This document shows positions 120 through 41,455 of a stretch of DNA of 41,715 nucleotides, piece after piece. Location: positions 1 through 41,715 of IMG/VR virus record IMGVR_UViG_3300045988_134432; one strand, written 5' to 3'. A program made the translations under genes and the position numbers. This stretch comes from a virus. Numbering within the stretch: the first letter of the stretch is position 1; each line of letters opens with the position of its first letter. Below the pieces are notes generated by a model, which was not told where the DNA came from, made no database searches, and saw only the letters and a program-made list of their open reading frames with translations.

Positions 120-137
120 AAAAAGGATGTGATTAAA

Positions 138-929
138 ATGAACAACGCACTCGATGATCTTTCCAAAGGTGTCGCAAAAGCTCTTGATACTGTTCCCGAG
201 TTATATCACGATACTCTTCAACCAGCAGCACAAGAAACTGGCAAAGTTATTGCCCGAATACCTCGTGCTATTAACGCAGCATTCTCTGGGCTTGATAGAT
301 GGATTTTAAATAAAGAGTATAGCATCGAAGAAACTAAGAAACTTCTTGCTCAAAAACTTGATAATGTCGATCCCGAAAAAATTGTTGAACCAGAACCATA
401 TGTTGCTGTTCCTGCAATTCAAGCAATTTCCTATGCAATGAATAGTGATGAATTGCGTAATCTATATGCCAATCTTCTTGCCAAATCTATGATTAAAGAT
501 ACAAAAGATACTGTTCATCCCTCTTTTGTTGAAATAATCAAGCAGATGTCTCCTATAGATGCACGTATATTTCAATTAATAATGAATGCTGGGTCTCGAC
601 CTCTTATTAATCTAAGAGTAAAAAGGGAACATGGTGGTTCATATCCAATTCAATATCACTGCTCATGGATACAAGATTTTTCAATTAAACAATGTGCAAC
701 ATCGCTTGATAGTTTATTGCGCTTAGGTTTAATTGAAATCCCATTCGACGGATATTACACCGACGAAAAAATATATAATCATGTAAAACAAAATCCTCTA
801 TTTAAAAAATTAGAACAATCCCATAAAAATTCTCTACCACCTGGAGAAACACTGGATTATGAAAAGTCTTACATAAAACTTCCTGATCTTTCTTTATTAT
901 TCTATGAAGTATGTGTCCTTAATCCTTAA
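138..929 (+). CDS. Abi-alpha / DUF4393-like protein (candidate abortive-infection or exclusion moron)
   Basis: The ORF track gives 129..929. The GTG at 129 sits 1 nt after the RBS, whereas the ATG at 138 has 10-nt spacing, so 138 is preferred. The motif pattern matches what I recognise as Pfam Abi_alpha (formerly DUF4393): PAAQETGK, EPEPYVAVPAIQAISY, LRNLYANLLAKSM, VHPSFVEIIKQMSPIDARIF. The gene has its own promoter and terminator and runs opposite to the flanking late genes. Confidence 0.65.
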   Translation: MNNALDDLSKGVAKALDTVPELYHDTLQPAAQETGKVIARIPRAINAAFSGLDRWILNKEYSIEETKKLLAQKLDNVDPEKIVEPEPYVAVPAIQAISYAMNSDELRNLYANLLAKSMIKDTKDTVHPSFVEIIKQMSPIDARIFQLIMNAGSRPLINLRVKREHGGSYPIQYHCSWIQDFSIKQCATSLDSLLRLGLIEIPFDGYYTDEKIYNHVKQNPLFKKLEQSHKNSLPPGETLDYEKSYIKLPDLSLLFYEVCVLNP

Positions 930-16068: not shown

Positions 16069-16297
16069 GTTACTATGCTCCTTTCGTATTAGGTTGTTTT
16101 AGGCGTGTAACCGACCGCCACGAACCGACTGTTTAAGGTCTGATCAGCTGACCAATGTTATTTCTTTGCATAAAAATAACACCCAGATCTCTCTGCGTGT
16201 CCTCTGCAGCTTAACCCTGCTGCGGGGAGATATTTGGATCACCATCCCTTCTATTCTGCTGACTTCATGTTTCGCTGCTCCTTTCTTAAAATTTCGT

Positions 16298-21914: not shown

Positions 21915-21988
21915 TGGACCTCCGGGGACTCGAACCCTGGACCAATCGGTTATGAGCCGATTGCTCTGACCTGCTGAGCTAGAGGTCC
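21915..21988 (-). tRNA. tRNA with CAT anticodon (Met, or Ile2 if lysidinylated)
   Basis: The minus-strand sequence is GGACCTC-TA-GCTC-AGCAGGTCA-GAGC-A-ATCGG-CTCATAA-CCGAT-TGGTC-CAGGG-TTCGAGT-CCCCG-GAGGTCC-A. It forms a 74-nt cloverleaf with a GTTCGAGT T-loop and one A:C mismatch in the T-stem. CCA is not encoded. Confidence 0.85.
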
Positions 21989-25164: not shown

Positions 25165-25547
25165 TACTCTTCCTCTAGTTCTTTTTGGATTTCGCTTGTT
25201 AATTCACAATAATAATTATCTATTACTTCTTGACACATTTGAGTTAGTGCATTAATGCTTGATAAACAAAGCATATTTTCTTCATAAATTACATAAGCTG
25301 GTGTTTCTCCATCTTCTTTGTATAAACATTCAAATGCAATAACATATATTTCATTTATCTCATTACAATCTTTTAATTCGCCTCTTTTTCTATATAATTT
25401 TTTAATAAGTCTTTTATAAAATCCTACCAAGATTTTCATAGCTCCGTCTTCATCTTGGTCCAGATTATAAATTATTTCTGGCTGATTCATAATTGTACAA
25501 ATGATTGTCTTTTTAACTGCATCCTTGAATTGTGTCTTTGTAATCAT
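25164..25547 (-). CDS. Hypothetical protein
   Basis: The ORF track gives 25164..25577. The ATG at 25547 has GGAAGGAG 8 nt upstream, whereas the ATG at 25577 has no RBS and lies inside a hairpin arm. Confidence 0.65.
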   Translation of the reverse strand: MITKTQFKDAVKKTIICTIMNQPEIIYNLDQDEDGAMKILVGFYKRLIKKLYRKRGELKDCNEINEIYVIAFECLYKEDGETPAYVIYEENMLCLSSINALTQMCQEVIDNYYCELTSEIQKELEEE

Positions 25548-25645
25548 ATTCTCTTCTCCTTCCAGCTGATACATCAACTGTTGTATTGTTTTATTAATTG
25601 ATGTATTAAATGATATATTAGTTAATCCTTAACTTTCTTTAACAA

Positions 25646-26382: not shown

Positions 26383-26615
26383 TCAGACAGCTTAACTTTC
26401 TACCTGAAACAGCTTATACTGATCACATTTCTATAATTTCTTGCCCGATCATATAAACTGCCGTGATTCTTCTCTCGTGATTTGAAAAATTGTAATACCA
26501 AATCTAGTTTGTGAAAAATAAAAATACAAAAAACCTGAAAAATATGTTTACGTTTGCTTGCTTCGTTAATAGTTACTCGAAAAATCTTAATCAGATAGAA
26601 AGTTAAGCTGTCTGA
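26383..26615. repeat. Long inverted repeat IR-B1 (25-nt arms 26383-26407 / 26591-26615)
   Basis: The arms are TCAGACAGCTTAACTTTCTACCTGA and TCAGATAGAAAGTTAAGCTGTCTGA, complementary at 24 of 25 positions. The one exception is C:A on plus, which is G:U on minus. Confidence 0.9.
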
Positions 26616-26713
26616 TCGTACTCCTTTCTGCCCACTGCCTAAGGCAGCAGGCTCATGGCTTATACTGGCTGTTTCTTATGCGGTTAATAGTTACTGTGGT
26701 ATATAATTCAGTC

Positions 26714-26864
26714 CATCCGGCTGATCTCTGTCCGCATATGTGATCATCTTTTTACGCCCTGTCGCTTAAGATCATCCCGAACCCCACAACTACCACGACT
26801 ATTACTACGACTTTTAGCAACAATCTTAGGTTGTTGGTTGCTACGGACAGAGATCAACCGGATG
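26714..26864. repeat. Long inverted repeat IR-B2 (21-nt arms 26714-26734 / 26844-26864)
   Basis: The arms are CATCCGGCTGATCTCTGTCCG and CGGACAGAGATCAACCGGATG, complementary at 20 of 21 positions. The one exception is C:A on plus, which is G:U on minus. Confidence 0.9.
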
Positions 26865-26876
26865 CTTTATTTTTTC

Positions 26877-27608
26877 TTAGCTTGCAGCAAGCAACTTATT
26901 AATAAAATACTGCTGCCCTTTACCAGTAACCTTTGTAGTCTTTCTGATCTTTGTCGTTCCATCCGGATTTGTGATCGTTCTTTCTTCAACTTCAAACAAT
27001 CCCATTTCCATGCTCTTTTGTGTTGGCATATTCCAACTTGGACCTCTTCTTTGGATTAAATATCCGTTATTTCTGAGTTTTTGAAACAGTCTGTTTTGAC
27101 CAATATCAATTCCTTTTTGCTTAAGAATTTTTGCTAAATCTCCGATCAGAATAGAATCTTTACTCGCTGTTACTGCATCAGCAAATATCTCCTTAGGCTT
27201 CATACGTTCATTATCTTCAATCAATGCAGCTTTCTCTGTCTTTAATTTGTCTATTGTTCTATCAGCCATCTTTAATGCTCTCGCAAAGATCTGTTCTGGT
27301 GTATTCCAGGCTTTTTCTAAGTCAAGGAAGTACTGTCTAATCTGTTTTCCCTTTTCAGTTCTAGACATTAAACAAATATGTTTTGCCATATCTACAGACA
27401 TTTTATAATCCTGTAGTTCGCGTTGTGCTCCATTGTTTACAACCGTACCTGTAAGTACACTTGTAAAATCTTCGTTTTCTACGAATCCTTGTGAATTTGA
27501 TTCAAACCAAGCTGAGAATCTTTTATTAATCTCAAGTGCTTCGTGTAAATCCCTTGCTGATACTGTTGGTTCTTCTGTATCGTAGTTAACAGGAATTAAA
27601 TTATCCAT
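26877..27608 (-). CDS. Antirepressor (AntA/ORF6N-like N-terminus, KilAC-like C-terminus)
   Basis: 243 aa. The N-terminal part reads VSARDLHEALEINKRFSAWFESNSQGFVENEDF and the C-terminal part reads ILIGDLAKILKQKGIDIGQNRLFQKLRNNGYLI. Confidence 0.7.
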   Translation of the reverse strand: MDNLIPVNYDTEEPTVSARDLHEALEINKRFSAWFESNSQGFVENEDFTSVLTGTVVNNGAQRELQDYKMSVDMAKHICLMSRTEKGKQIRQYFLDLEKAWNTPEQIFARALKMADRTIDKLKTEKAALIEDNERMKPKEIFADAVTASKDSILIGDLAKILKQKGIDIGQNRLFQKLRNNGYLIQRRGPSWNMPTQKSMEMGLFEVEERTITNPDGTTKIRKTTKVTGKGQQYFINKLLAAS

Positions 27609-33840: not shown

Positions 33841-34233
33841 TCAAACGCTTATCATTTCAGTTGCAAAAAACTTTTTTGCATTTATGAAATACCTGTGCTT
33901 TTTTTCACTTGTCCGGATTGCATATCCCCATGGAAAAATCCCTTGAATCAGTCCTTTTTCGATTGTTGGAACACCCATTCCCATCAAATACGCAACTTCT
34001 TTCGGGGTTAACGTCTCTATTTTCTTTTTAGGAATTACTATTTCTTCGAAGTAATTCTCTGGAAGATCAAATGCTTCTGCAATCTCATTTCGTCTCGCTT
34101 TTGTTGGTTCCGAATCTCCAGACATCCACTTACTGACGGTCGATCTACTTACACCGCAGATTCTGGACAACTCTACTTGATTGATGTTTTGATCTGCCAT
34201 TACTTTTTTAAGCCTGTCCCTGAACACTTTCAT
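33841..34233 (-). CDS. XRE-family HTH protein with a second C-terminal HTH-like region (early regulator)
   Basis: The ATG at 34233 is preceded by AAAGGTAGGTG; the track's first codon (34236) is a GTG. The HTH is INQVELSRICGVSRSTVSKWMSG. Confidence 0.7.
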   Translation of the reverse strand: MKVFRDRLKKVMADQNINQVELSRICGVSRSTVSKWMSGDSEPTKARRNEIAEAFDLPENYFEEIVIPKKKIETLTPKEVAYLMGMGVPTIEKGLIQGIFPWGYAIRTSEKKHRYFINAKKFFATEMISV

Positions 34234-34247
34234 CACCTACCTTTCTT

Positions 34248-34353
34248 CAGATGGCTTAACTCTCCGTCCGATTGAGTGCTATTTTTAATGATTAACCAAT
34301 TTTATGGAGGAGTTTCGGGGTTATATGTATCGGACAGAGGATTAAGCCATCTG
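34248..34353. repeat. Long inverted repeat IR-C (25-nt arms 34248-34272 / 34329-34353), paralogous to IR-B1
   Basis: The arms are CAGATGGCTTAACTCTCCGTCCGAT and ATCGGACAGAGGATTAAGCCATCTG. On the minus-strand RNA, 22 of 25 positions are Watson-Crick, two are G:U and one is a mismatch. Confidence 0.9.
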
Positions 34354-34364
34354 CCATTATTCTG

Positions 34365-34393
34365 TTGTCTTTCTTTCATATATCTCCTATACT
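34365..34393 (+). promoter_or_regulatory. Candidate promoter TTGTCT-17 nt-TATACT for the plus-strand membrane-protein gene
   Basis: The hexamers lie at 34365-34370 and 34388-34393. The AAAGGAG RBS and the ATG at 34446 lie downstream. Confidence 0.45.
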
Positions 34394-34445
34394 TAATTCA
34401 CAGGGCACCGCCATGCCCGAGTAATAATGAAAGGAGAATAAACCT

Positions 34446-35276
34446 ATGAAATACGATAAAATTAATTCGTTTTCTAAAGAGCTATCGTCAATTCAAAAAA
34501 CTTTAGATTCATATAAAGGATTCACGCAAGCATTCACAAAAAGATCTAACTTTTATGCAAAAACCATTCCACATTCTGCTTTAGCTGCATCCTTAAATGC
34601 GAAAAAATTTGTTCCAAAACCTACGATGGTAGATGCTATTGCTAGCAAAGTGAAATACACTGCAGCCTTAAATGTTAAAGTTATGGGCCTATCCATGGAC
34701 AACTCTGCGCTTGCATCCGCAATTAAACTCTCGTCATGCATAAAAGATTCATATCTAAATGGTCCTGCTGTAAGTGGAGTATGTAAGAGTATACAAAAGC
34801 TTCAAAATACATATACTTCTTCTCTCCAGCAACAGGCTACAGAGTTAATAATTACTTCGAAAGAAATACTTTCTGCTTTTGAAAGTTCTTCAGATTTTGA
34901 TGTGGATCAATTTGAATTTGATCAGGATACAGTTTCTGCACCTATAAGTTTTGTAGATTCCATCTCTGATATTTTTGATAACACTCCATCTATTTCAGAT
35001 ATTTTGTTACCTATTAAGGAAAAGATATCTATCAAACTCTTTATTTCCATCGTAACAACTATTATTTCTGCTATTACTGTTTGTTGCCTCATTACTCAAA
35101 ACAAACTTCAAGCTGAGTCTAATCAAATATCCAAAGAGCAATTACAATTGGATAAAAAATACAAAAAACTTGAGTTTGAGCAAAAAGAACGTGAGCTAGA
35201 TCAAAAAGATCGTGAATTAGATTTAAAAGATGAAGAATTACATTTAAATCTTAATAAGTCCGATTCAAACAATTGA
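34446..35276 (+). CDS. Membrane-anchored coiled-coil protein, reverse-oriented moron inside the early region
   Basis: 276 aa. It has one TM segment (LFISIVTTIISAITVCCLITQ) followed by a repetitive charged tail (KERELDQKDRELDLKDEEL). I recognise no family. Confidence 0.75.
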   Translation: MKYDKINSFSKELSSIQKTLDSYKGFTQAFTKRSNFYAKTIPHSALAASLNAKKFVPKPTMVDAIASKVKYTAALNVKVMGLSMDNSALASAIKLSSCIKDSYLNGPAVSGVCKSIQKLQNTYTSSLQQQATELIITSKEILSAFESSSDFDVDQFEFDQDTVSAPISFVDSISDIFDNTPSISDILLPIKEKISIKLFISIVTTIISAITVCCLITQNKLQAESNQISKEQLQLDKKYKKLEFEQKERELDQKDRELDLKDEELHLNLNKSDSNN

Positions 35277-35563: not shown

Positions 35564-35578
35564 GTCACTAAACGTGAC
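35564..35578. promoter_or_regulatory. Operator-like palindrome GTCAC-N5-GTGAC
   Basis: GTCACTAAACGTGAC overlaps the stop codon of the Cro-like gene. It shares the TCAC-N5-GTGA core with the sites at 35841 and 35887. Confidence 0.4.
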
Positions 35579-35783
35579 ATTTTTCATCAAAAAAAATTTC
35601 CTGTACACTTTTGCCGTAATATGAAGCTAATTTAACTTTAACAACATCACGAGGAATGCGTTCTCCATTTTCATACATTGATATAGCAGATACACTTATG
35701 CCAACAGCATCGGCAACAGTTTCTCTCGAGATGTTTCCTCTTAACTCTCTTAGTCGACACCCAATTTCTTTGGCATCCAACAT
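35568..35783 (-). CDS. Cro-like XRE-family HTH repressor
   Basis: 71 aa. The HTH is ISRETVADAVGISVSAISMYENGERIP. The gene is divergent from the CI-like gene. Confidence 0.8.
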   Translation of the reverse strand: MLDAKEIGCRLRELRGNISRETVADAVGISVSAISMYENGERIPRDVVKVKLASYYGKSVQEIFFDEKCHV

Positions 35784-35827: not shown

Positions 35828-35856
35828 ATATTATCATATGTCACGTATTGTGTCAA
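35828..35856 (-). promoter_or_regulatory. Early lytic promoter (TTGACA-17 nt-TAATAT) for the Cro-like gene
   Basis: On the minus strand, TTGACA lies at 35856-35851 and TAATAT at 35833-35828. An operator-like site lies in the spacer and the -35 region. Confidence 0.6.
35841..35853. promoter_or_regulatory. Operator-like site TCAC-N5-GTGT within the early promoter
   Basis: TCACGTATTGTGT is a degenerate copy of the TCAC-N5-GTGA motif. Confidence 0.4.
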
Positions 35857-35886
35857 CACTTTTTGTGACATTTCTATTTACTTTTT

Positions 35887-35899
35887 TCACGTTACGTGA
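35887..35899. promoter_or_regulatory. Operator-like perfect palindrome TCACGT-T-ACGTGA
   Basis: TCACGTTACGTGA lies between a weak plus-strand promoter candidate (TTTACT-17-TATTCT) and the repressor gene. Confidence 0.5.
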
Positions 35900-35946
35900 T
35901 ATTCTTATATCAACAAATACAATATATAAGGAAGGTGATTTATAAA

Positions 35947-36393
35947 GTGGGAAATTTTCAAAATATATTAAAATCGTTGCGAACTTCTCATAGTTTAACT
36001 CAAGATGCTCTCGCAAAAAAATTAAAAATTTCCAGAAGTACTATCGGAATGTATGAAAGCGGAGCTCGTGAACCAGATTTTGAAACATTAGAATTGATTG
36101 CTGATTTCTTCAATGTCGATATCGATTATTTATTAGGAAGAACGCTTAAAACTACTTATATTCCATTTGCTGAAAACCAACCAGAGCTCAACAAAAGAGA
36201 CACAAAACAAATAGAAGAAATCCTACAGCAAACCAAAGACAAACTAACATCCCAAGAAGGATTAATGTTTGATGGCGATCCCGCTTCTCCTGAAGCAATT
36301 GAATCTATTCTAAACGCAATGGAAATTGGGATGGAGATGGCTAAGAAAAAGAACAAGGAAAAATATACACCTAAAAAATATAAAAAGGACTGA
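35947..36393 (+). CDS. CI/ImmR-like XRE-family repressor
   Basis: The ORF track gives 35896..36393. The GTG at 35947 is preceded by AAGGAAGGTGA. The HTH is LTQDALAKKLKISRSTIGMYESGAREP. An ImmA-type protease gene follows. Confidence 0.8.
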   Translation: MGNFQNILKSLRTSHSLTQDALAKKLKISRSTIGMYESGAREPDFETLELIADFFNVDIDYLLGRTLKTTYIPFAENQPELNKRDTKQIEEILQQTKDKLTSQEGLMFDGDPASPEAIESILNAMEIGMEMAKKKNKEKYTPKKYKKD

Positions 36394-36398
36394 TGTGA

Positions 36399-36821
36399 AT
36401 GGACATAAAAAAGATTGTAAATTCGCTTGTCAAGAAACACAAAACAAGAGACCCCTTTGAGATTATCAAGGGAATGAATGTGATCCTTGTGCCAGTGCCA
36501 CTTGAAGGTGTCAGAGGATTCTATCAATATTTTCAACGTAACAACATTATTTATATTGACGATTCTCTTCCAGAACATGAACAAATCCTTGTCTGTGCTC
36601 ATGAGTTAGGTCATATGTTGTTGCATAAAAAAGCTAATGCTTTATTCATGGATACATATACTGGGTTCAATACAACGAAGTATGAAAAAGAAGCGGATCT
36701 ATTTGCTATGGAACTTCTTGTGCCGGACGATATATTTTTAGAGTACCAGGAATACACCACTGGACAGATCGCGCATGCACTCGGCTATAATGAAGAGTTG
36801 ATTAAACTAAGATTAAAATAG
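36399..36821 (+). CDS. immA: ImmA/IrrE-family zinc metalloprotease (anti-repressor protease)
   Basis: 140 aa. The HExxH motif lies in VCAHELGHMLLH. The gene follows the repressor directly, as in ImmR/ImmA modules. Confidence 0.8.
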   Translation: MDIKKIVNSLVKKHKTRDPFEIIKGMNVILVPVPLEGVRGFYQYFQRNNIIYIDDSLPEHEQILVCAHELGHMLLHKKANALFMDTYTGFNTTKYEKEADLFAMELLVPDDIFLEYQEYTTGQIAHALGYNEELIKLRLK

Positions 36822-37960: not shown

Positions 37961-38986
37961 ATGGCAAGAAGAAATCCTAACGGCTACGGCAGTGTAACGA
38001 AATTAAAAGGAAATCGATCACGACCATACGTTGTAAAAGTTACTACATATGATGAAGATGGACACGGAAGGCAGGTCCCAGTGGACTATGCTGCAACTCG
38101 TGAAGAAGCAAATATTATTTTAGCCAGGTACAATGATAATCCTTGGAATATTGATCGCAATCGCGTCACTCTTGCAGAATTATATAAGCGATGGCTTGAA
38201 GTAAAAGCTCCTAAACTTGGAAGTTCTCGTTTATATACACTTAAAGCAGCTTATAAACATTGTCAAAAACTGTACGGAAAGAAATATAGGCAAATACGAG
38301 CTTATCATATGCAAGCAACCATGGACGATTGTGGTCGTAGTTACGCTACACAATCTCATATCAAAGCACTTTGGTGGCATTTAGATAATTTTGCATTTGA
38401 ATTAGACATTATAGATAAGATGTATTCTCAAATAATTTCTGTCAGCACAGAACAGGGAGAAACTAAACGCACTCCATTCACTGAAAAAGAAGTTGAAGAT
38501 CTGTGGAAAATATCTGATCAAAAAAATGTAGATATTGTATTAATCTATATTTACACCGGATTCAGATTAATGGAATTGTTAAATATGACATGTGATCAGA
38601 TCAATCTTGAAGAAGAATATTTTAAAGGCGGAAGCAAATCTTCTTCAGGGAAGAATAGAATTGTGCCAATCCATCCTCGTATCATGCCGTTTGTGAAAAA
38701 TCGGCTAAAGAAAAGTAATGAATATTTTTTAGAAACTGATGAAGGATCTAAATTTAAAAAAGGGGATTTTTATGAAGAATGGAAAACTGTTATTTCCTAT
38801 ATAACAAAGAAGAAGAAAACTCCTCATGAAGCTAGACATACTTTTGAAACATTCCTTGATAATGCAGGTGGTAATAGAAAGTGTATTGATATGCTGATGG
38901 GGCACAAATCTAAAGATGTTGGAAATAGGGTTTATAATCATAAAACAGTAGAACAATTAAGAGAGACAATTCTTTTGTTGAAATAA
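37961..38986 (+). CDS. int: Tyrosine integrase with AP2-like arm-binding N-terminal domain
   Basis: 341 aa. The N-terminus reads NGYGSVTKLKGNRSRPYVVKVT. The C-terminal catalytic pattern is ...HEARHTFETFL...LMGH...VY. Confidence 0.9.
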   Translation: MARRNPNGYGSVTKLKGNRSRPYVVKVTTYDEDGHGRQVPVDYAATREEANIILARYNDNPWNIDRNRVTLAELYKRWLEVKAPKLGSSRLYTLKAAYKHCQKLYGKKYRQIRAYHMQATMDDCGRSYATQSHIKALWWHLDNFAFELDIIDKMYSQIISVSTEQGETKRTPFTEKEVEDLWKISDQKNVDIVLIYIYTGFRLMELLNMTCDQINLEEEYFKGGSKSSSGKNRIVPIHPRIMPFVKNRLKKSNEYFLETDEGSKFKKGDFYEEWKTVISYITKKKKTPHEARHTFETFLDNAGGNRKCIDMLMGHKSKDVGNRVYNHKTVEQLRETILLLK

Positions 38987-40504: not shown

Positions 40505-41245
40505 CTATCTAAATGAAATACTTGACTTATTCACTTCTACACTATCTAAACCATATTCAGGATCATTTACTATATCTCTAATTAATTCTTCAAACCACAC
40601 TTGTGCATAAGGACTAATATATATTTCATCTATTAATGTATCCACTGAAATGTTAATATTTTTTCCTACCTTACCATCATTTTCGTCATAACATAGTGCT
40701 CTGATCTCATTTTCATATTTGTATGCACGATATTTACATGCTTCTTTAACATGTTCCCAGACAAAATCTTCAGGATGATCATAAAAAGGAAGTTCTAAAG
40801 TTTTATTTCCGTCAACAAACGAATCCAAATATTTCACTTTATATATCTCAACTCTCGAATCATTAAGTGCTTTTCTCAAATGTCCAACTGTTGTTTTAAT
40901 TGCTACACCTGTATCCGGATGAGTATATAATTTCCACATTGCATAATTTTCCCCACATTCAAAATTATTCCAGCAATTAATGTAAGCTACTCTATTTAAT
41001 ATCTCATCTCTTTCTTTATAAAATTGCTTCTTTTTATCACTCCATAAATTATAAAATCCGTTTGGAACTTCACCCTCATATTTATCTTCAAATTTCTCAG
41101 CATTACAGAAAAACAATTCCTTTTTAATTAATATATTCATAAACTTACTGAAATCCATATATCTTATAATTTCAGCCTCATCATCAATACGATATTCTTT
41201 TTCTATATTTTCCATTATCTCTTCAGTGTATACATTTCTTGACAT
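40505..41245 (-). CDS. DUF2971-like protein (accessory/moron gene)
   Basis: The ORF track gives 40505..41284. The ATG at 41245 is preceded by TTAGGAGAAAATTAT. The motifs ELFFCNAEKFEDKYEGE and YINCWNNFECGENYAMWKLYTHPDTGVAIKT fit the DUF2971 pattern as I recall it. The segment is visibly AT-richer than the structural genes. Confidence 0.6.
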   Translation of the reverse strand: MSRNVYTEEIMENIEKEYRIDDEAEIIRYMDFSKFMNILIKKELFFCNAEKFEDKYEGEVPNGFYNLWSDKKKQFYKERDEILNRVAYINCWNNFECGENYAMWKLYTHPDTGVAIKTTVGHLRKALNDSRVEIYKVKYLDSFVDGNKTLELPFYDHPEDFVWEHVKEACKYRAYKYENEIRALCYDENDGKVGKNINISVDTLIDEIYISPYAQVWFEELIRDIVNDPEYGLDSVEVNKSSISFR

Positions 41246-41455
41246 ATAATTTTCTCCTAAACAATTATTTCTATTTACCATCATCTATATATTTCTTATC
41301 TTCAATAAGCATTCATATAATTGCACACCACCCCTTTCATCATTCTTAATTATAAAATCATCAATATTAATGCTGTTAACTATTGTAATCAGTAATCTCC
41401 TCTATATAAGTATCATACCCTACATGTGCGGCATATTCTATTTTTTTCTTATTTT

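What the first reader, a model, noticed from the sequence alone, without database searches (positions are those of the whole stretch)
34248..34353. A second long hairpin, paralogous to 26383-26615, with five compensated base-pair changes and the same placement before a start codon
The 25-nt arms at 34248-34272 and 34329-34353 are separated by a 56-nt spacer. On the minus strand they form 22 Watson-Crick pairs, 2 G:U pairs and 1 mismatch.
- Sequence: the arms are homologous to those of the 26.4-kb element. The sense-strand 5' arms are TCAGACAGCTTAACTTTCTATCTGA versus CAGATGGCTTAATCCTCTGTCCGAT. The 3' arms are ...GTAGAAAGTTAAGCTGTCTGA versus ...GACGGAGAGTTAAGCCATCTGA.
- Compensation: at five paired positions both partners differ between the two loci while pairing is kept (C:G to U:A, A:U to G:C, U:A to C:G, A:U to G:C, U:A to C:G).
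- Placement: in both loci the 3' arm ends 13-14 nt before the ATG of the next gene (26368 and 34233), and the interval contains the same AGGTAG SD-like hexamer.
- Related motifs: a smaller 9-bp hairpin sits similarly before the gene at 25547 (25569-25606). The sense-strand heptamer GTTAAGC also recurs in other intergenic gaps (near 998-1004 and 16209-16215), and the 11-mer AGAAAGTTAAG recurs at 25628-25638.

Perfect dsRNA stems longer than 20 bp are classic RNase III substrates, as in T7 early mRNA processing and lambda. These may therefore be processing, stabilising or translational-control elements that define the 5' ends of early cistrons. An alternative is two decayed MITE-like elements with related terminal inverted repeats.
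Basis: partly seen in the sequence, partly recalled or inferred. Interest (0 to 1): 0.7.

Follow-up and report, generated by a model that had tools for sequence, protein, structure and literature searches.

The report
Conserved RNA hairpins punctuating phage early operon
The hairpin is real and belongs to a family of long stem-loops that evolution keeps base-paired in the messenger-RNA strand between the early genes of a group of Anaerostipes gut prophages, most likely as RNA cutting or stabilising signals like those of phages T7 and SP82.

Summary
The hairpin at 34248-34353 is as described: 25-nt arms, 56-nt loop, and 22 Watson-Crick, 2 G:U and 1 mismatch on the minus strand.

- **Paralogs.** It is paralogous to 26383-26615, with five compensated pairs. 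I found a third paralog at 26714-26864. These are the three longest inverted repeats in the window.
- **Setting.** The window is an Anaerostipes-type temperate prophage. All three hairpins lie on the sense strand of one roughly 13-kb early transcription unit.
- **Relatives.** More than 200 related viral contig fragments carry the same elements, up to four per fragment, always in the same orientation.
- **Selection.** 17 arm-mismatch states are G:U on the sense strand and 2 on the antisense strand (p=4e-4). The adjacent gene shows no such strand bias. U:A to U:G to C:G series and many double compensations are present.
- **Rejected readings.** No target-site duplications, no empty sites and no inverted loops, so a mobile element or invertible switch is rejected. 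There is no Rfam match.

Best reading: intercistronic double-stranded RNA stems, probably RNase III processing or stabilising signals placed just before strong ribosome-binding sites. Cleavage is untested. The GTTAAGC recurrences elsewhere in the window are at chance level.

The parts
34329..34353 (-). Hairpin B, 5' arm (RNA sense): CAGAUGGCUUAAUCCUCUGUCCGAU
   Evidence: Nearly invariant in 35 distinct relatives.
34273..34328 (-). Hairpin B loop: 56 nt, A/U-rich, with a CCUCC motif and UUGGUUAAUCAUUAAAAAUAGCACUCA
   Evidence: Predicted largely unpaired. Loop length in relatives is 49-97 nt.
34248..34272 (-). Hairpin B, 3' arm: AUCGGACGGAGAGUUAAGCCAUCUG
   Evidence: Its A/G variation falls opposite U of the 5' arm.
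34233..34247 (-). Extended Shine-Dalgarno AAGAAAGGUAGGUGA directly after the stem. The likely start is GUG 34227-34225; an alternative is AUG 34233-34231.
   Evidence: Conserved in front of three different downstream genes.
33841..34227 (-). First gene after hairpin B: a 128-131 aa helix-turn-helix (XRE-type) regulator
   Evidence: Pfam HTH_3 6.5e-11. PHROG transcriptional regulator.
26383..26615 (-). Hairpin A: 25-bp closing stem (arms 26591-26615 and 26383-26407), a 183-nt insert with conserved blocks, and an inner hairpin at about 26410-26460
26714..26864 (-). Hairpin D, a third paralog not in the finding: 21-bp stem (arms 26844-26864 and 26714-26734, one U:G on the minus strand) and a structured 109-nt insert
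   Evidence: Folds at -73.2 kcal/mol, z = -8.95.
35828..35856 (-). Strong early promoter-like site (TTGACA-17-TAATAT with TG) next to the repressor gene. It is the probable source of the transcript that carries B, D and A.
   Evidence: No minus-strand terminator-like site lies between it and 22811.
34365..34393 (+). Divergent promoter-like site (TTGTCT-17-TATACT) for the variable plus-strand gene 34446-35276. It abuts the 5' arm of B.
   Evidence: Conserved with B while the gene it serves varies.

Best explanation
Hairpin B is a cis-acting RNA stem-loop in the long early (lytic) transcript of a temperate Anaerostipes phage. A and D in this window, and further variants in relatives, are paralogs.

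**Proposed mechanism**
1. The transcript starts at the promoter next to the repressor gene and runs through all the minus-strand early genes.
2. Between certain cistrons the RNA folds into a helix of about 21-28 bp. In most types the base of the helix is the invariant CAGA...UCUG.
3. A helix of two or more turns is the natural substrate of host RNase III. The most likely function is therefore endonucleolytic processing that cuts the polycistronic RNA into segments.
4. In this window, processing at B would also detach the downstream message from RNA that is antisense to the plus-strand gene 34446-35276.
5. The new 5' end would lie a few nucleotides upstream of a very strong ribosome-binding site (AAGAAAGGNAGGUGA). 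A bound ribosome there could both translate the next gene and protect the end from 5' exonuclease.

**Shown versus inferred**
- Shown: the helix, its sense-strand-specific conservation, the family, and its placement.
- Inferred: co-transcription of both arms, RNase III cleavage, and the stabilising or activating consequence.
For: **Structure under selection on the sense strand**
- In 35 distinct B elements, 95.9% of cells are paired and 5 pairs show double changes. None of 500 shuffles reaches this, and slid controls give 27-44% paired.
- Across types A-D, 17 mismatch states are G:U on the sense strand and 2 are compatible only with the antisense strand (binomial p=3.6e-4).
- The neighbouring gene shows no mutational strand bias: 40 versus 44 transitions. 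Fisher test against 17:2 gives p=6.5e-4.
- Stepwise U:A > U:G > C:G series are seen. The C-A mismatch is repaired to U:A in 22+ loci.
- Across 35 distinct stems, 13 positions carry two or more Watson-Crick pair types.

**Placement**
- All hairpins are on the coding strand of the early operon.
- In relatives, A starts about 11 nt after the stop codon of the upstream gene. It ends 14 nt before the next ATG.
- In L033 a B-like hairpin lies 25 nt after the cro-like gene and 19 nt before the next ATG. A second hairpin follows that gene.
- No terminator-like site interrupts the unit.

**Family behaviour**
- The three longest inverted repeats of the window, and essentially all long inverted repeats in related fragments, belong to this family. 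Up to 4 occur per 15-kb fragment.

**Precedent**
- The idealised RNase III substrate is 22 bp, two helical turns. T7 early RNA carries five processing signals, and mismatches at the target give single-strand cuts (PMC3867540).
- B. subtilis RNase III cleaves phage SP82 early mRNA (PMC4838370).
- The SP82 mRNA is stabilised through its ribosome-binding site (PMC7509114 citing Hue et al. 1995).
Against: - No transcript-end or cleavage data exist.
- Firmicute RNase III is described as narrow-specificity (PMC4838370), so cleavage of these stems is not guaranteed.
- Simple processing sites need no conserved loop. Yet the A/C inserts (180-270 nt) and the D insert carry conserved blocks and inner helices that this model does not explain.
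- The invariant CAGA/UCUG base and the GCUUAA core suggest sequence-specific recognition that RNase III alone may not account for.
- A promoter inside the loops cannot be excluded from sequence. Weak matches exist, for example 26517-26489. A promoter there would leave the 5' arm out of some transcripts.
- G:T wobbles are also tolerated in folded single-stranded DNA.
Confidence: 0.55

Rival explanations
1. The RNA hairpin acts without RNase III cleavage. It could be a passive barrier that protects the 3' end of the upstream cistron and the 5' end of the downstream cistron from exonucleases. It could insulate the ribosome-binding site from upstream structure. Or it could be the binding site of a sequence-specific double-stranded-RNA-binding regulator, from phage or host, that times early gene expression.
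For: - It rests on the same covariation and placement evidence as the main model.
- The invariant CAGA/UCUG base and the GCUUAA/UUAAGC core fit recognition by a specific factor better than generic double-stranded-RNA recognition.
- In the minimum-energy fold the ribosome-binding site is left unpaired.
- The Correia-element paper states that those elements can bind RNase III and be either cleaved or protected by it (PMC2649163).
Against: - In several relatives the helix is a perfect 24-28 bp. Such a helix would be hard to keep away from RNase III in a cell.
- No candidate RNA-binding protein was found among the early genes.
- Pairing of the loop CCUCC with the Shine-Dalgarno sequence is no better than for shuffled loops.
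Confidence: 0.25
2. The element acts at the DNA level. It could be a cruciform or folded single-strand site for recombination or replication priming. One version is an integron-attC-like site or a conserved 'linker' that promotes exchange of gene modules.
For: - Flanks are mosaic right at the element. B sits behind at least 5 different upstream contexts and in front of 3 different genes.
- Arm A contains GCTTAAC...GTTAAGC, which matches the attC consensus RYYYAAC...GTTRRRY (my own knowledge of attC; sequence).
- G:T is the most tolerated DNA mismatch, so a strand-specific folded-DNA role could mimic the wobble signal.
Against: - A protein that reads both arms as duplex DNA, or a cruciform, predicts no strand asymmetry. 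The observed ratio is 17:2.
- attC sites fold on the bottom strand. Here the favoured strand is the coding strand.
- The first base of the 'GTT' box is variable in B (G, A or C).
- The hairpin plus Shine-Dalgarno sequence is constant while both flanks vary. This is the opposite of cassette-specific attC sites.
- The only recombinase in the window is an ordinary phage integrase. It scores 32.7 bits against the integron-integrase model, whose cut-off is 265.
- The tight spacing to start codons has no DNA-level rationale.
Confidence: 0.07
3. The elements are relics of a miniature inverted-repeat transposable element (MITE) family with related terminal repeats. They could be neutral, or exapted in the way Neisseria Correia elements are.
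For: - Several copies per genome share terminal inverted repeats (CAGA...TCTG) but have unrelated internal sequences.
- Correia elements are also co-transcribed and interact with RNase III (PMC2649163).
Against: - No target-site duplication is seen.
- Each type occupies one fixed position per phage.
- 69 of 69 loci with the downstream gene carry B, so there are no empty sites.
- In a truncated scan of species-representative genomes, true copies were seen only in three contigs, two titled Anaerostipes, and only one per contig. All had the same downstream flank as the phage copies.
- Arm mismatches are selected for RNA pairing.
Confidence: 0.05
4. The element is an invertible DNA switch (inverton). 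A recombinase would flip the segment between the arms to turn a promoter or leader on and off.
For: - The inverted repeats (25 bp) and the spacers (56 and 183 bp) are in the size range of known invertons.
- The A spacer has a weak promoter-like match facing the downstream gene (26517-26489).
Against: - In 155 B and 52 A/C occurrences the loop has the same orientation relative to the downstream gene. None is inverted.
- The asymmetric mismatches always stay on the same arm.
- The promoter-like spacing is not conserved between A, C and E variants.
Confidence: 0.01

Closest known systems
RNase III processing signals of the phage T7 early polycistronic mRNA (R0.3-R1.3)
   Same: - Several paralogous hairpins of about two helical turns sit between cistrons of one long early transcript, shortly before the next ribosome-binding site.
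- Central mismatches are known to restrict cleavage to one strand (PMC3867540).
   Different: - There is no sequence relationship, and the host is a gut Clostridium-class bacterium, not E. coli.
- Loops here are far larger (49-272 nt), and some carry conserved structured inserts.
- The stem base is sequence-invariant (CAGA/UCUG).
- Cleavage has not been shown.
[quoted passage not shown]
   Same: - A Firmicute phage has early mRNA hairpins cleaved by RNase III (PMC4838370).
- A strong Shine-Dalgarno-like purine tract stabilises the mRNA (Hue et al. 1995, as cited in PMC7509114). Here AAGAAAGGNAGGUGA follows the stem directly.
   Different: - SP82 is a virulent Bacillus phage; this one is temperate.
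- I could not read the primary SP82 papers, so the similarity in anatomy rests partly on my own recollection.
- No sequence homology was tested.
Correia repeat-enclosed elements (Neisseria MITEs)
   Same: - Elements of about 100-150 bp with roughly 26-bp inverted ends occur in multiple copies and are co-transcribed with neighbouring genes.
- They are bound or cleaved by RNase III and can carry promoter-like ends (PMC2649163).
   Different: - Here there are no target duplications, no dispersal in the host chromosome and no insertion polymorphism.
- The elements are confined to the early operon of one phage lineage.
Processing stems that flank 16S/23S rRNA in precursor rRNA
   Same: A long helix is formed by sequences on both sides of a large structured insert and is cut by RNase III (PMC4838370). 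The anatomy of A, C and D (closing stem plus structured insert) resembles this.
   Different: - The inserts here are 110-270 nt and of unknown function.
- Nothing shows that they accumulate as stable RNAs.
Integron attC sites
   Same: - Imperfect palindromes lie between co-oriented genes.
- An RYYYAAC/GTTRRRY-like pair occurs in arm A.
- The fold is strand-specific.
   Different: - The favoured strand is the wrong one, and there is no integron integrase.
- The site is constant while its flanks vary.
- The box is not conserved in B.

Membership tests
RNase III processing site | Double-helical RNA of about two turns (about 20-22 bp or more) | tested here: met
   - B has 25 positions: 22 Watson-Crick, 2 G:U and 1 mismatch.
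- Relatives reach a perfect 24-28 bp.
- The fold has z = -4.5.
RNase III processing site | Helix maintained by selection in the transcribed strand | tested here: met
   - 17 sense-strand versus 2 antisense-strand wobble states, with a control for mutation bias.
- 5 doubly changed pairs, reached by 0 of 500 shuffles.
- 13 covarying positions across paralogs.
RNase III processing site | Both arms present on one transcript | tested here: inconclusive
   - No terminator-like site lies between the early promoter and 22811.
- In relatives the 5' arms start 10-25 nt after upstream stop codons.
- Promoters inside the loops cannot be excluded from sequence.
RNase III processing site | Cleavage by RNase III in vivo or in vitro | not testable with these tools
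   Needs end-mapping in wild-type versus rnc hosts, or an enzyme assay.
MITE | Terminal inverted repeats | tested here: met
MITE | Target-site duplication flanking the element | tested here: not met
   The flanks of B (..aatgg|CAGA...TCTG|aagaa..) and of A (..acgaT|CAGA...TCTG|Agata..) share no duplicated bases.
MITE | Many dispersed copies and insertion polymorphism (filled and empty sites) | tested here: not met
   - Each type has one fixed position per phage.
- 69/69 loci with the downstream gene have B.
- The genome scan gave only single copies with phage-type flanks, but it was truncated.
Inverton (invertible promoter or leader) | Both orientations of the enclosed segment occur in populations | tested here: not met
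   0 of 207 occurrences are inverted.
Intrinsic terminator | G+C-rich stem with a short loop, followed by a U tract | tested here: not met
   The loop is 56 nt, the 3' flank is AAGAAAGG, and the scan did not call it.
Integron attC site | Conserved RYYYAAC / GTTRRRY boxes at the stem base, bottom-strand folding, and an integron integrase nearby | tested here: not met
   - The box is internal to the stem, and its first base varies in B.
- Wobbles favour the coding strand.
- The integrase scores 32.7 bits against a 265-bit cut-off for the integron integrase model.
Any curated RNA family (Rfam 15) | Covariance-model match at or near the gathering score | tested here: not met
   Only sub-threshold microRNA-precursor or snoRNA noise at B, nothing at A, and noise at D.

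The most novel reading that the evidence does not exclude
The closing stems may not be mere cut sites. They may be excision signals, analogous to the stems that flank rRNA. RNase III, or a dedicated factor that reads the invariant CAGA/UCUG base, would release the enclosed segments from the early transcript as free non-coding RNAs that act in trans.

The candidate released segments are:
- the 56-nt C-rich (CCUCC) loop of B;
- the highly structured 109-nt insert of D;
- the conserved 180-270-nt inserts of A, C and E.

Possible trans functions include sponging ribosome-binding sites or host factors, or countering host defence during lytic growth. The evidence does not exclude this. The inserts are conserved beyond what a cut site needs: D folds with z = -8.95, and A/C/E share sequence blocks and a covarying inner helix.
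Probability: 0.12. Interest if true: 0.7.

Novelty: new member of a known kind. Interest (0 to 1): 0.42.

Why it matters
Post-transcriptional organisation of early gene expression is well studied in T7, lambda and SP82. It is essentially unknown for the temperate phages of abundant gut Clostridia such as Anaerostipes.

- **A defined candidate.** This family gives a concrete, sequence-defined, strongly covarying candidate for such control.
- **A landmark.** It also marks the junctions at which these phages exchange gene modules, including the variable slot that holds prophage-expressed accessory genes.
- **A testable prediction.** RNA ends should depend on RNase III.
- **Annotation.** The family is a candidate entry for RNA family databases.
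- **Limits.** If the stems are ordinary processing sites, the finding is useful annotation and no more. The unexplained conserved inserts of A, C and D are the part that could hold something new.

Tried and rejected
- **Inverton.** I looked for flipped loops among all relatives and found none.
- **MITE.** No target duplications, fixed positions and no empty sites.
- **Genome-collection scan.** I ran it with an over-loose pattern. It gave the host genus but is not a complete census.
- **Rfam.** No family matched at B, A or D.
- **Promoter inside the loops.**
  - Only weak matches were found.
  - The hexamer spacing is not conserved between the A, C and E variants.
  - One relative deletes the -10-like block.
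- **Loop CCUCC as an anti-Shine-Dalgarno pseudoknot.** Duplex energies are no better than for shuffled loops. One common variant (CCUACC) is perfectly complementary to GGUAGG. Left as speculation.
- **Small ORFs.**
  - The 25-aa ORF that enters the 5' arm of B exists in only one upstream context. It coincides with the divergent promoter.
  - The valine-rich ORF in the D insert loses its frame or start in several relatives.
  - The 6-codon antisense mini-ORF has a variable distance to its Shine-Dalgarno sequence and is lost in L234.
  - All three were rejected as coding.
- **Operator reading of the loop palindrome TTAATNATTAA.** It occurs once in the window and is unrelated to the GTCAC-N5-GTGAC operators at the repressor/cro region. 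Relatives change its spacing by 3 nt.
- **attC-like reading.** Rejected.
- **Distant homologues of the downstream regulator (about 40% identity).** They have no hairpin, so the family is lineage-restricted.
- **GTTAAGC recurrences.** Chance level.
- **Cultured phages.** There is no similar region in the phage collection; a 1-kb query around B gave only a 72-nt hit to a Ruminococcus gnavus phage.
- **Hue et al. 1995.** The paper could not be read.

Full report
**1. The observation**

The minus strand at 34353-34248 reads CAGAUGGCUUAAUCCUCUGUCCGAU, then 56 nt, then AUCGGACGGAGAGUUAAGCCAUCUG.
- The repeat finder reports 25-nt arms, 22/25 complementary as DNA, 56 nt apart.
- Pair by pair, the minus strand gives 22 Watson-Crick pairs, 2 G:U and one C-A mismatch.
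- The minus-strand RNA folds at -39.5 kcal/mol (z = -4.5). The plus strand is clearly weaker (z = -2.45).
- The paralog at 26383-26407 / 26591-26615 has 24/25 complementarity and a 183-nt spacer.
- A window-wide scan ranks these two as the longest inverted repeats within 400 nt. The third longest, 26714-26734 / 26844-26864, is a further homologue: its inner arm UCUCUGUCCG compares with CCUCUGUCCG in B, and it has one U:G on the minus strand.
- The peripheral 'related motifs' do not hold up. GTTAAGC occurs 6 times against 4.1 expected. The 11-mer at 25628-25638 is real but has no partner arm.

**2. The setting**

The window is a temperate siphovirus-like prophage.
- Lysogeny genes on the plus strand: integrase 37961-38986, ImmA-type protease 36399-36821 and HTH repressor 35896-36393.
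- Early genes on the minus strand:
  - a cro-like HTH gene at 35568-35783;
  - an HTH regulator at 33841-34236;
  - YqaJ exonuclease, RecT, RusA and a replisome organiser;
  - an antirepressor at 26877-27608.
- Further along the minus strand come a methyltransferase, a late regulator, the small terminase subunit and structural genes.
- The only strong promoter-like site on the minus strand is TTGACA-17-TAATAT, with TG, at 35856-35828 beside the repressor.
- No minus-strand terminator-like site follows until 22811. B, D and A therefore lie inside one early unit of about 13 kb, on its sense strand.
- B sits in the gap between a plus-strand gene of unknown function (34446-35276) and the HTH gene. 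The plus-strand gene has its own promoter-like site at 34365-34393.
- True copies in genome assemblies come from Anaerostipes hadrus and an uncultured Anaerostipes.

**3. The family**

- A degenerate arm pattern found 112 viral contig stretches. Every hit has a partner arm downstream.
- A second pattern that left the inner stem free found 88 stretches, which added new variants.
- The elements fall into size classes:
  - B: loop 49-97 nt;
  - A: 178-189 nt;
  - C: 228-272 nt.
- A generic inverted-repeat scan showed that essentially all long repeats in these fragments belong to the same family. This includes the D type, A-like variants with re-paired arms (E), and B-like variants (F, G).
- Up to four occur in a 15-kb fragment; the window has three.
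- In L033 a B-like hairpin lies 25 nt after the cro-like gene and 19 nt before the next ATG. A second hairpin follows that small gene.
- In relatives, A starts about 11 nt after the upstream stop codon. It ends 14 nt before the next ATG.
- B together with AAGAAAGGNAGGUGA is constant. It sits behind at least five unrelated upstream contexts, which are divergent accessory genes or an antirepressor. It sits in front of three different small DNA-binding genes.
- Two distant homologues of the regulator (about 40% identity) lack any such hairpin.
- There is no Rfam match.

**4. RNA or DNA?**

This is the key result.
- Where the two DNA arms are not perfectly complementary, the mismatch is almost always G:U when read on the sense strand.
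- I counted distinct (type, position) states over 181 loci of types A-D. There are 17 sense-strand wobbles and 2 states that would be wobbles only on the antisense strand (binomial p = 3.6e-4).
- This is not mutational strand bias. In 32 alleles of the adjacent gene, A>G plus C>T number 40 and T>C plus G>A number 44, with 28:28 at third codon positions. Fisher test against 17:2 gives p = 6.5e-4.
- In B the 3'-arm purines opposite U16, U18 and U20 toggle between A and G.
- A clade of 22+ loci then changes U16 and U20 to C and repairs the C14-A mismatch to U:A. The result is a perfect helix.
- The counting tool gives 95.9% paired cells and 5 doubly changed pairs. None of 500 shuffles reaches these values, and slid controls give 27-44%.
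- Across 35 distinct stems, 13 of 24 positions carry two or more Watson-Crick types. The first four pairs (CAGA/UCUG) are invariant.
- A and C also share a covarying inner hairpin.
- A duplex-DNA operator or a cruciform predicts no strand asymmetry. A folded single DNA strand cannot be formally excluded, but it would not explain the spacing to start codons.

**5. What it is not**

- **Inverton.** 155 B and 52 A/C occurrences all have the loop in the same orientation.
- **MITE.** There is no target duplication, the positions are fixed, and 69/69 loci with the downstream gene carry B.
- **Terminator.** The loop is long and there is no U tract.
- **attC.** The favoured strand is wrong, the box is not conserved, and there is no integron integrase.
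- **Coding.** The small ORFs that overlap B and D are not conserved in frame.
- **Anti-Shine-Dalgarno pseudoknot.** Pairing between the loop CCUCC and the ribosome-binding site is not supported energetically.

**6. Mechanism**

A transcribed helix of 21-28 bp is the canonical RNase III substrate (22 bp, two turns). T7 uses five such signals in its early polycistronic RNA, and mismatches at the target favour single-strand cuts (PMC3867540).

B. subtilis RNase III cuts hairpins in phage SP82 early mRNA (PMC4838370). The SP82 message depends on its ribosome-binding site for stability (PMC7509114 citing Hue et al. 1995).

By analogy, I propose that B, D and A are processing signals that segment the early transcript. 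In this window B would also separate the downstream message from RNA that is antisense to the plus-strand accessory gene. The new 5' end, a few nucleotides before AAGAAAGGUAGGUGA, would then be shielded by a bound ribosome.
- Shown: the helix, selection on the sense strand, the family, and its placement.
- Inferred: co-transcription of both arms, the cleavage, and its consequences.
- Confidence: about 0.85 that this is a functional RNA structure, and 0.55 for the RNase III processing model specifically.

**7. What remains unexplained**

- The invariant CAGA/UCUG base and the GCUUAA core.
- The conserved blocks of the A, C and E inserts: AGUAACUAUUAAC, AAACAUAUUUUUUC, UAGAUUU..UUACAAU and GAAGAAUCAC.
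- The 12-mer GTAACTATTAAC, which also follows D.
- The very stable fold of D (z = -8.95).

These features go beyond what a cut site needs. They keep open the possibility that the stems excise functional RNAs.

**8. Verdict**

The RNA interpretation is supported by covariation, and the mobile-element alternative is rejected. RNase III involvement is plausible but untested. The finding is an undescribed, lineage-restricted family of a well-known kind of phage element, and it is of moderate interest.

Noticed in passing
window 26714-26864 (-): A third long hairpin (D) sits between the antirepressor gene and element A. It has a 21-bp stem homologous to B's inner arm and a 109-nt insert with inner helices. 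It folds at -73.2 kcal/mol (z = -8.95) and is conserved in 26 or more distinct relatives.
   Followed up: yes
window 26683-26694 (-) and 26565-26576 (-): The 12-mer GTAACTATTAAC occurs about 20 nt after hairpin D and again inside the loop of hairpin A. It is conserved in the A, C and E variants of relatives. It may be a protein-binding site or an RNA motif.
   Followed up: partly
window 26616-26700 versus relatives (e.g. L003, L005): Relatives carry a gene of about 109 aa between D and A. In the window it is missing. The junction lies between two AAAGGAG Shine-Dalgarno-like repeats, which suggests a deletion.
   Followed up: partly
window 34403-34418 (+): A small hairpin (GGGCA..UGCCC) lies in the predicted 5' leader of the plus-strand gene 34446-35276. 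Relatives show compensatory variants (AGGCA/UGCCU, AGACAU/AUGUCU) and one wobble that fits only the plus strand. It is probably a 5' stem-loop of the accessory-gene mRNA.
   Followed up: partly
window 34446-35276 (+) and the equivalent slot in L001-L112: The slot upstream of hairpin B is a hot spot for unrelated, mostly divergently oriented accessory genes. Examples are membrane-helix proteins of 79-290 aa, or an antirepressor. The window's 276-aa protein matches nothing in Pfam, PHROGs, NCBIfam or PADLOC.
   Followed up: partly
window 35575-35590 and 35840-35900 (-): Palindromes of the type GTCAC-N5-GTGAC / TCACGTAACGTGA flank the early promoter and follow the cro-like gene. They are probably the repressor/Cro operators and are unrelated to the hairpin arms.
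   Followed up: no
window 16090-16153 (-): Rfam GP20-b RNA motif (47.2 bits, gathering score 36.2) upstream of a structural gene.
   Followed up: no
window 21915-21988 (-): A tRNA-Met (CAU) gene lies between the early/middle genes and the small terminase gene.
   Followed up: no
window 129-929 (+) and 40505-41284 (-): Candidate anti-phage defence genes lie near both ends of the window. One is Abi_alpha / PADLOC PDC-S47 (E = 1e-110). The other is DUF2971 / PDC-S31 (E = 5e-20).
   Followed up: no
window 25628-25638 (-): An exact 11-mer from the 3' arm of hairpin A (AGAAAGTTAAG) lies right after a stop codon and has no partner arm. It could be a relic half-hairpin or chance.
   Followed up: partly
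window 25569-25606 (-): A perfect 9-bp hairpin (AUACAUCAA/UUGAUGUAU, 20-nt loop) ends 22 nt before the ATG at 25546-25544. Its sequence is not related to the family.
   Followed up: no
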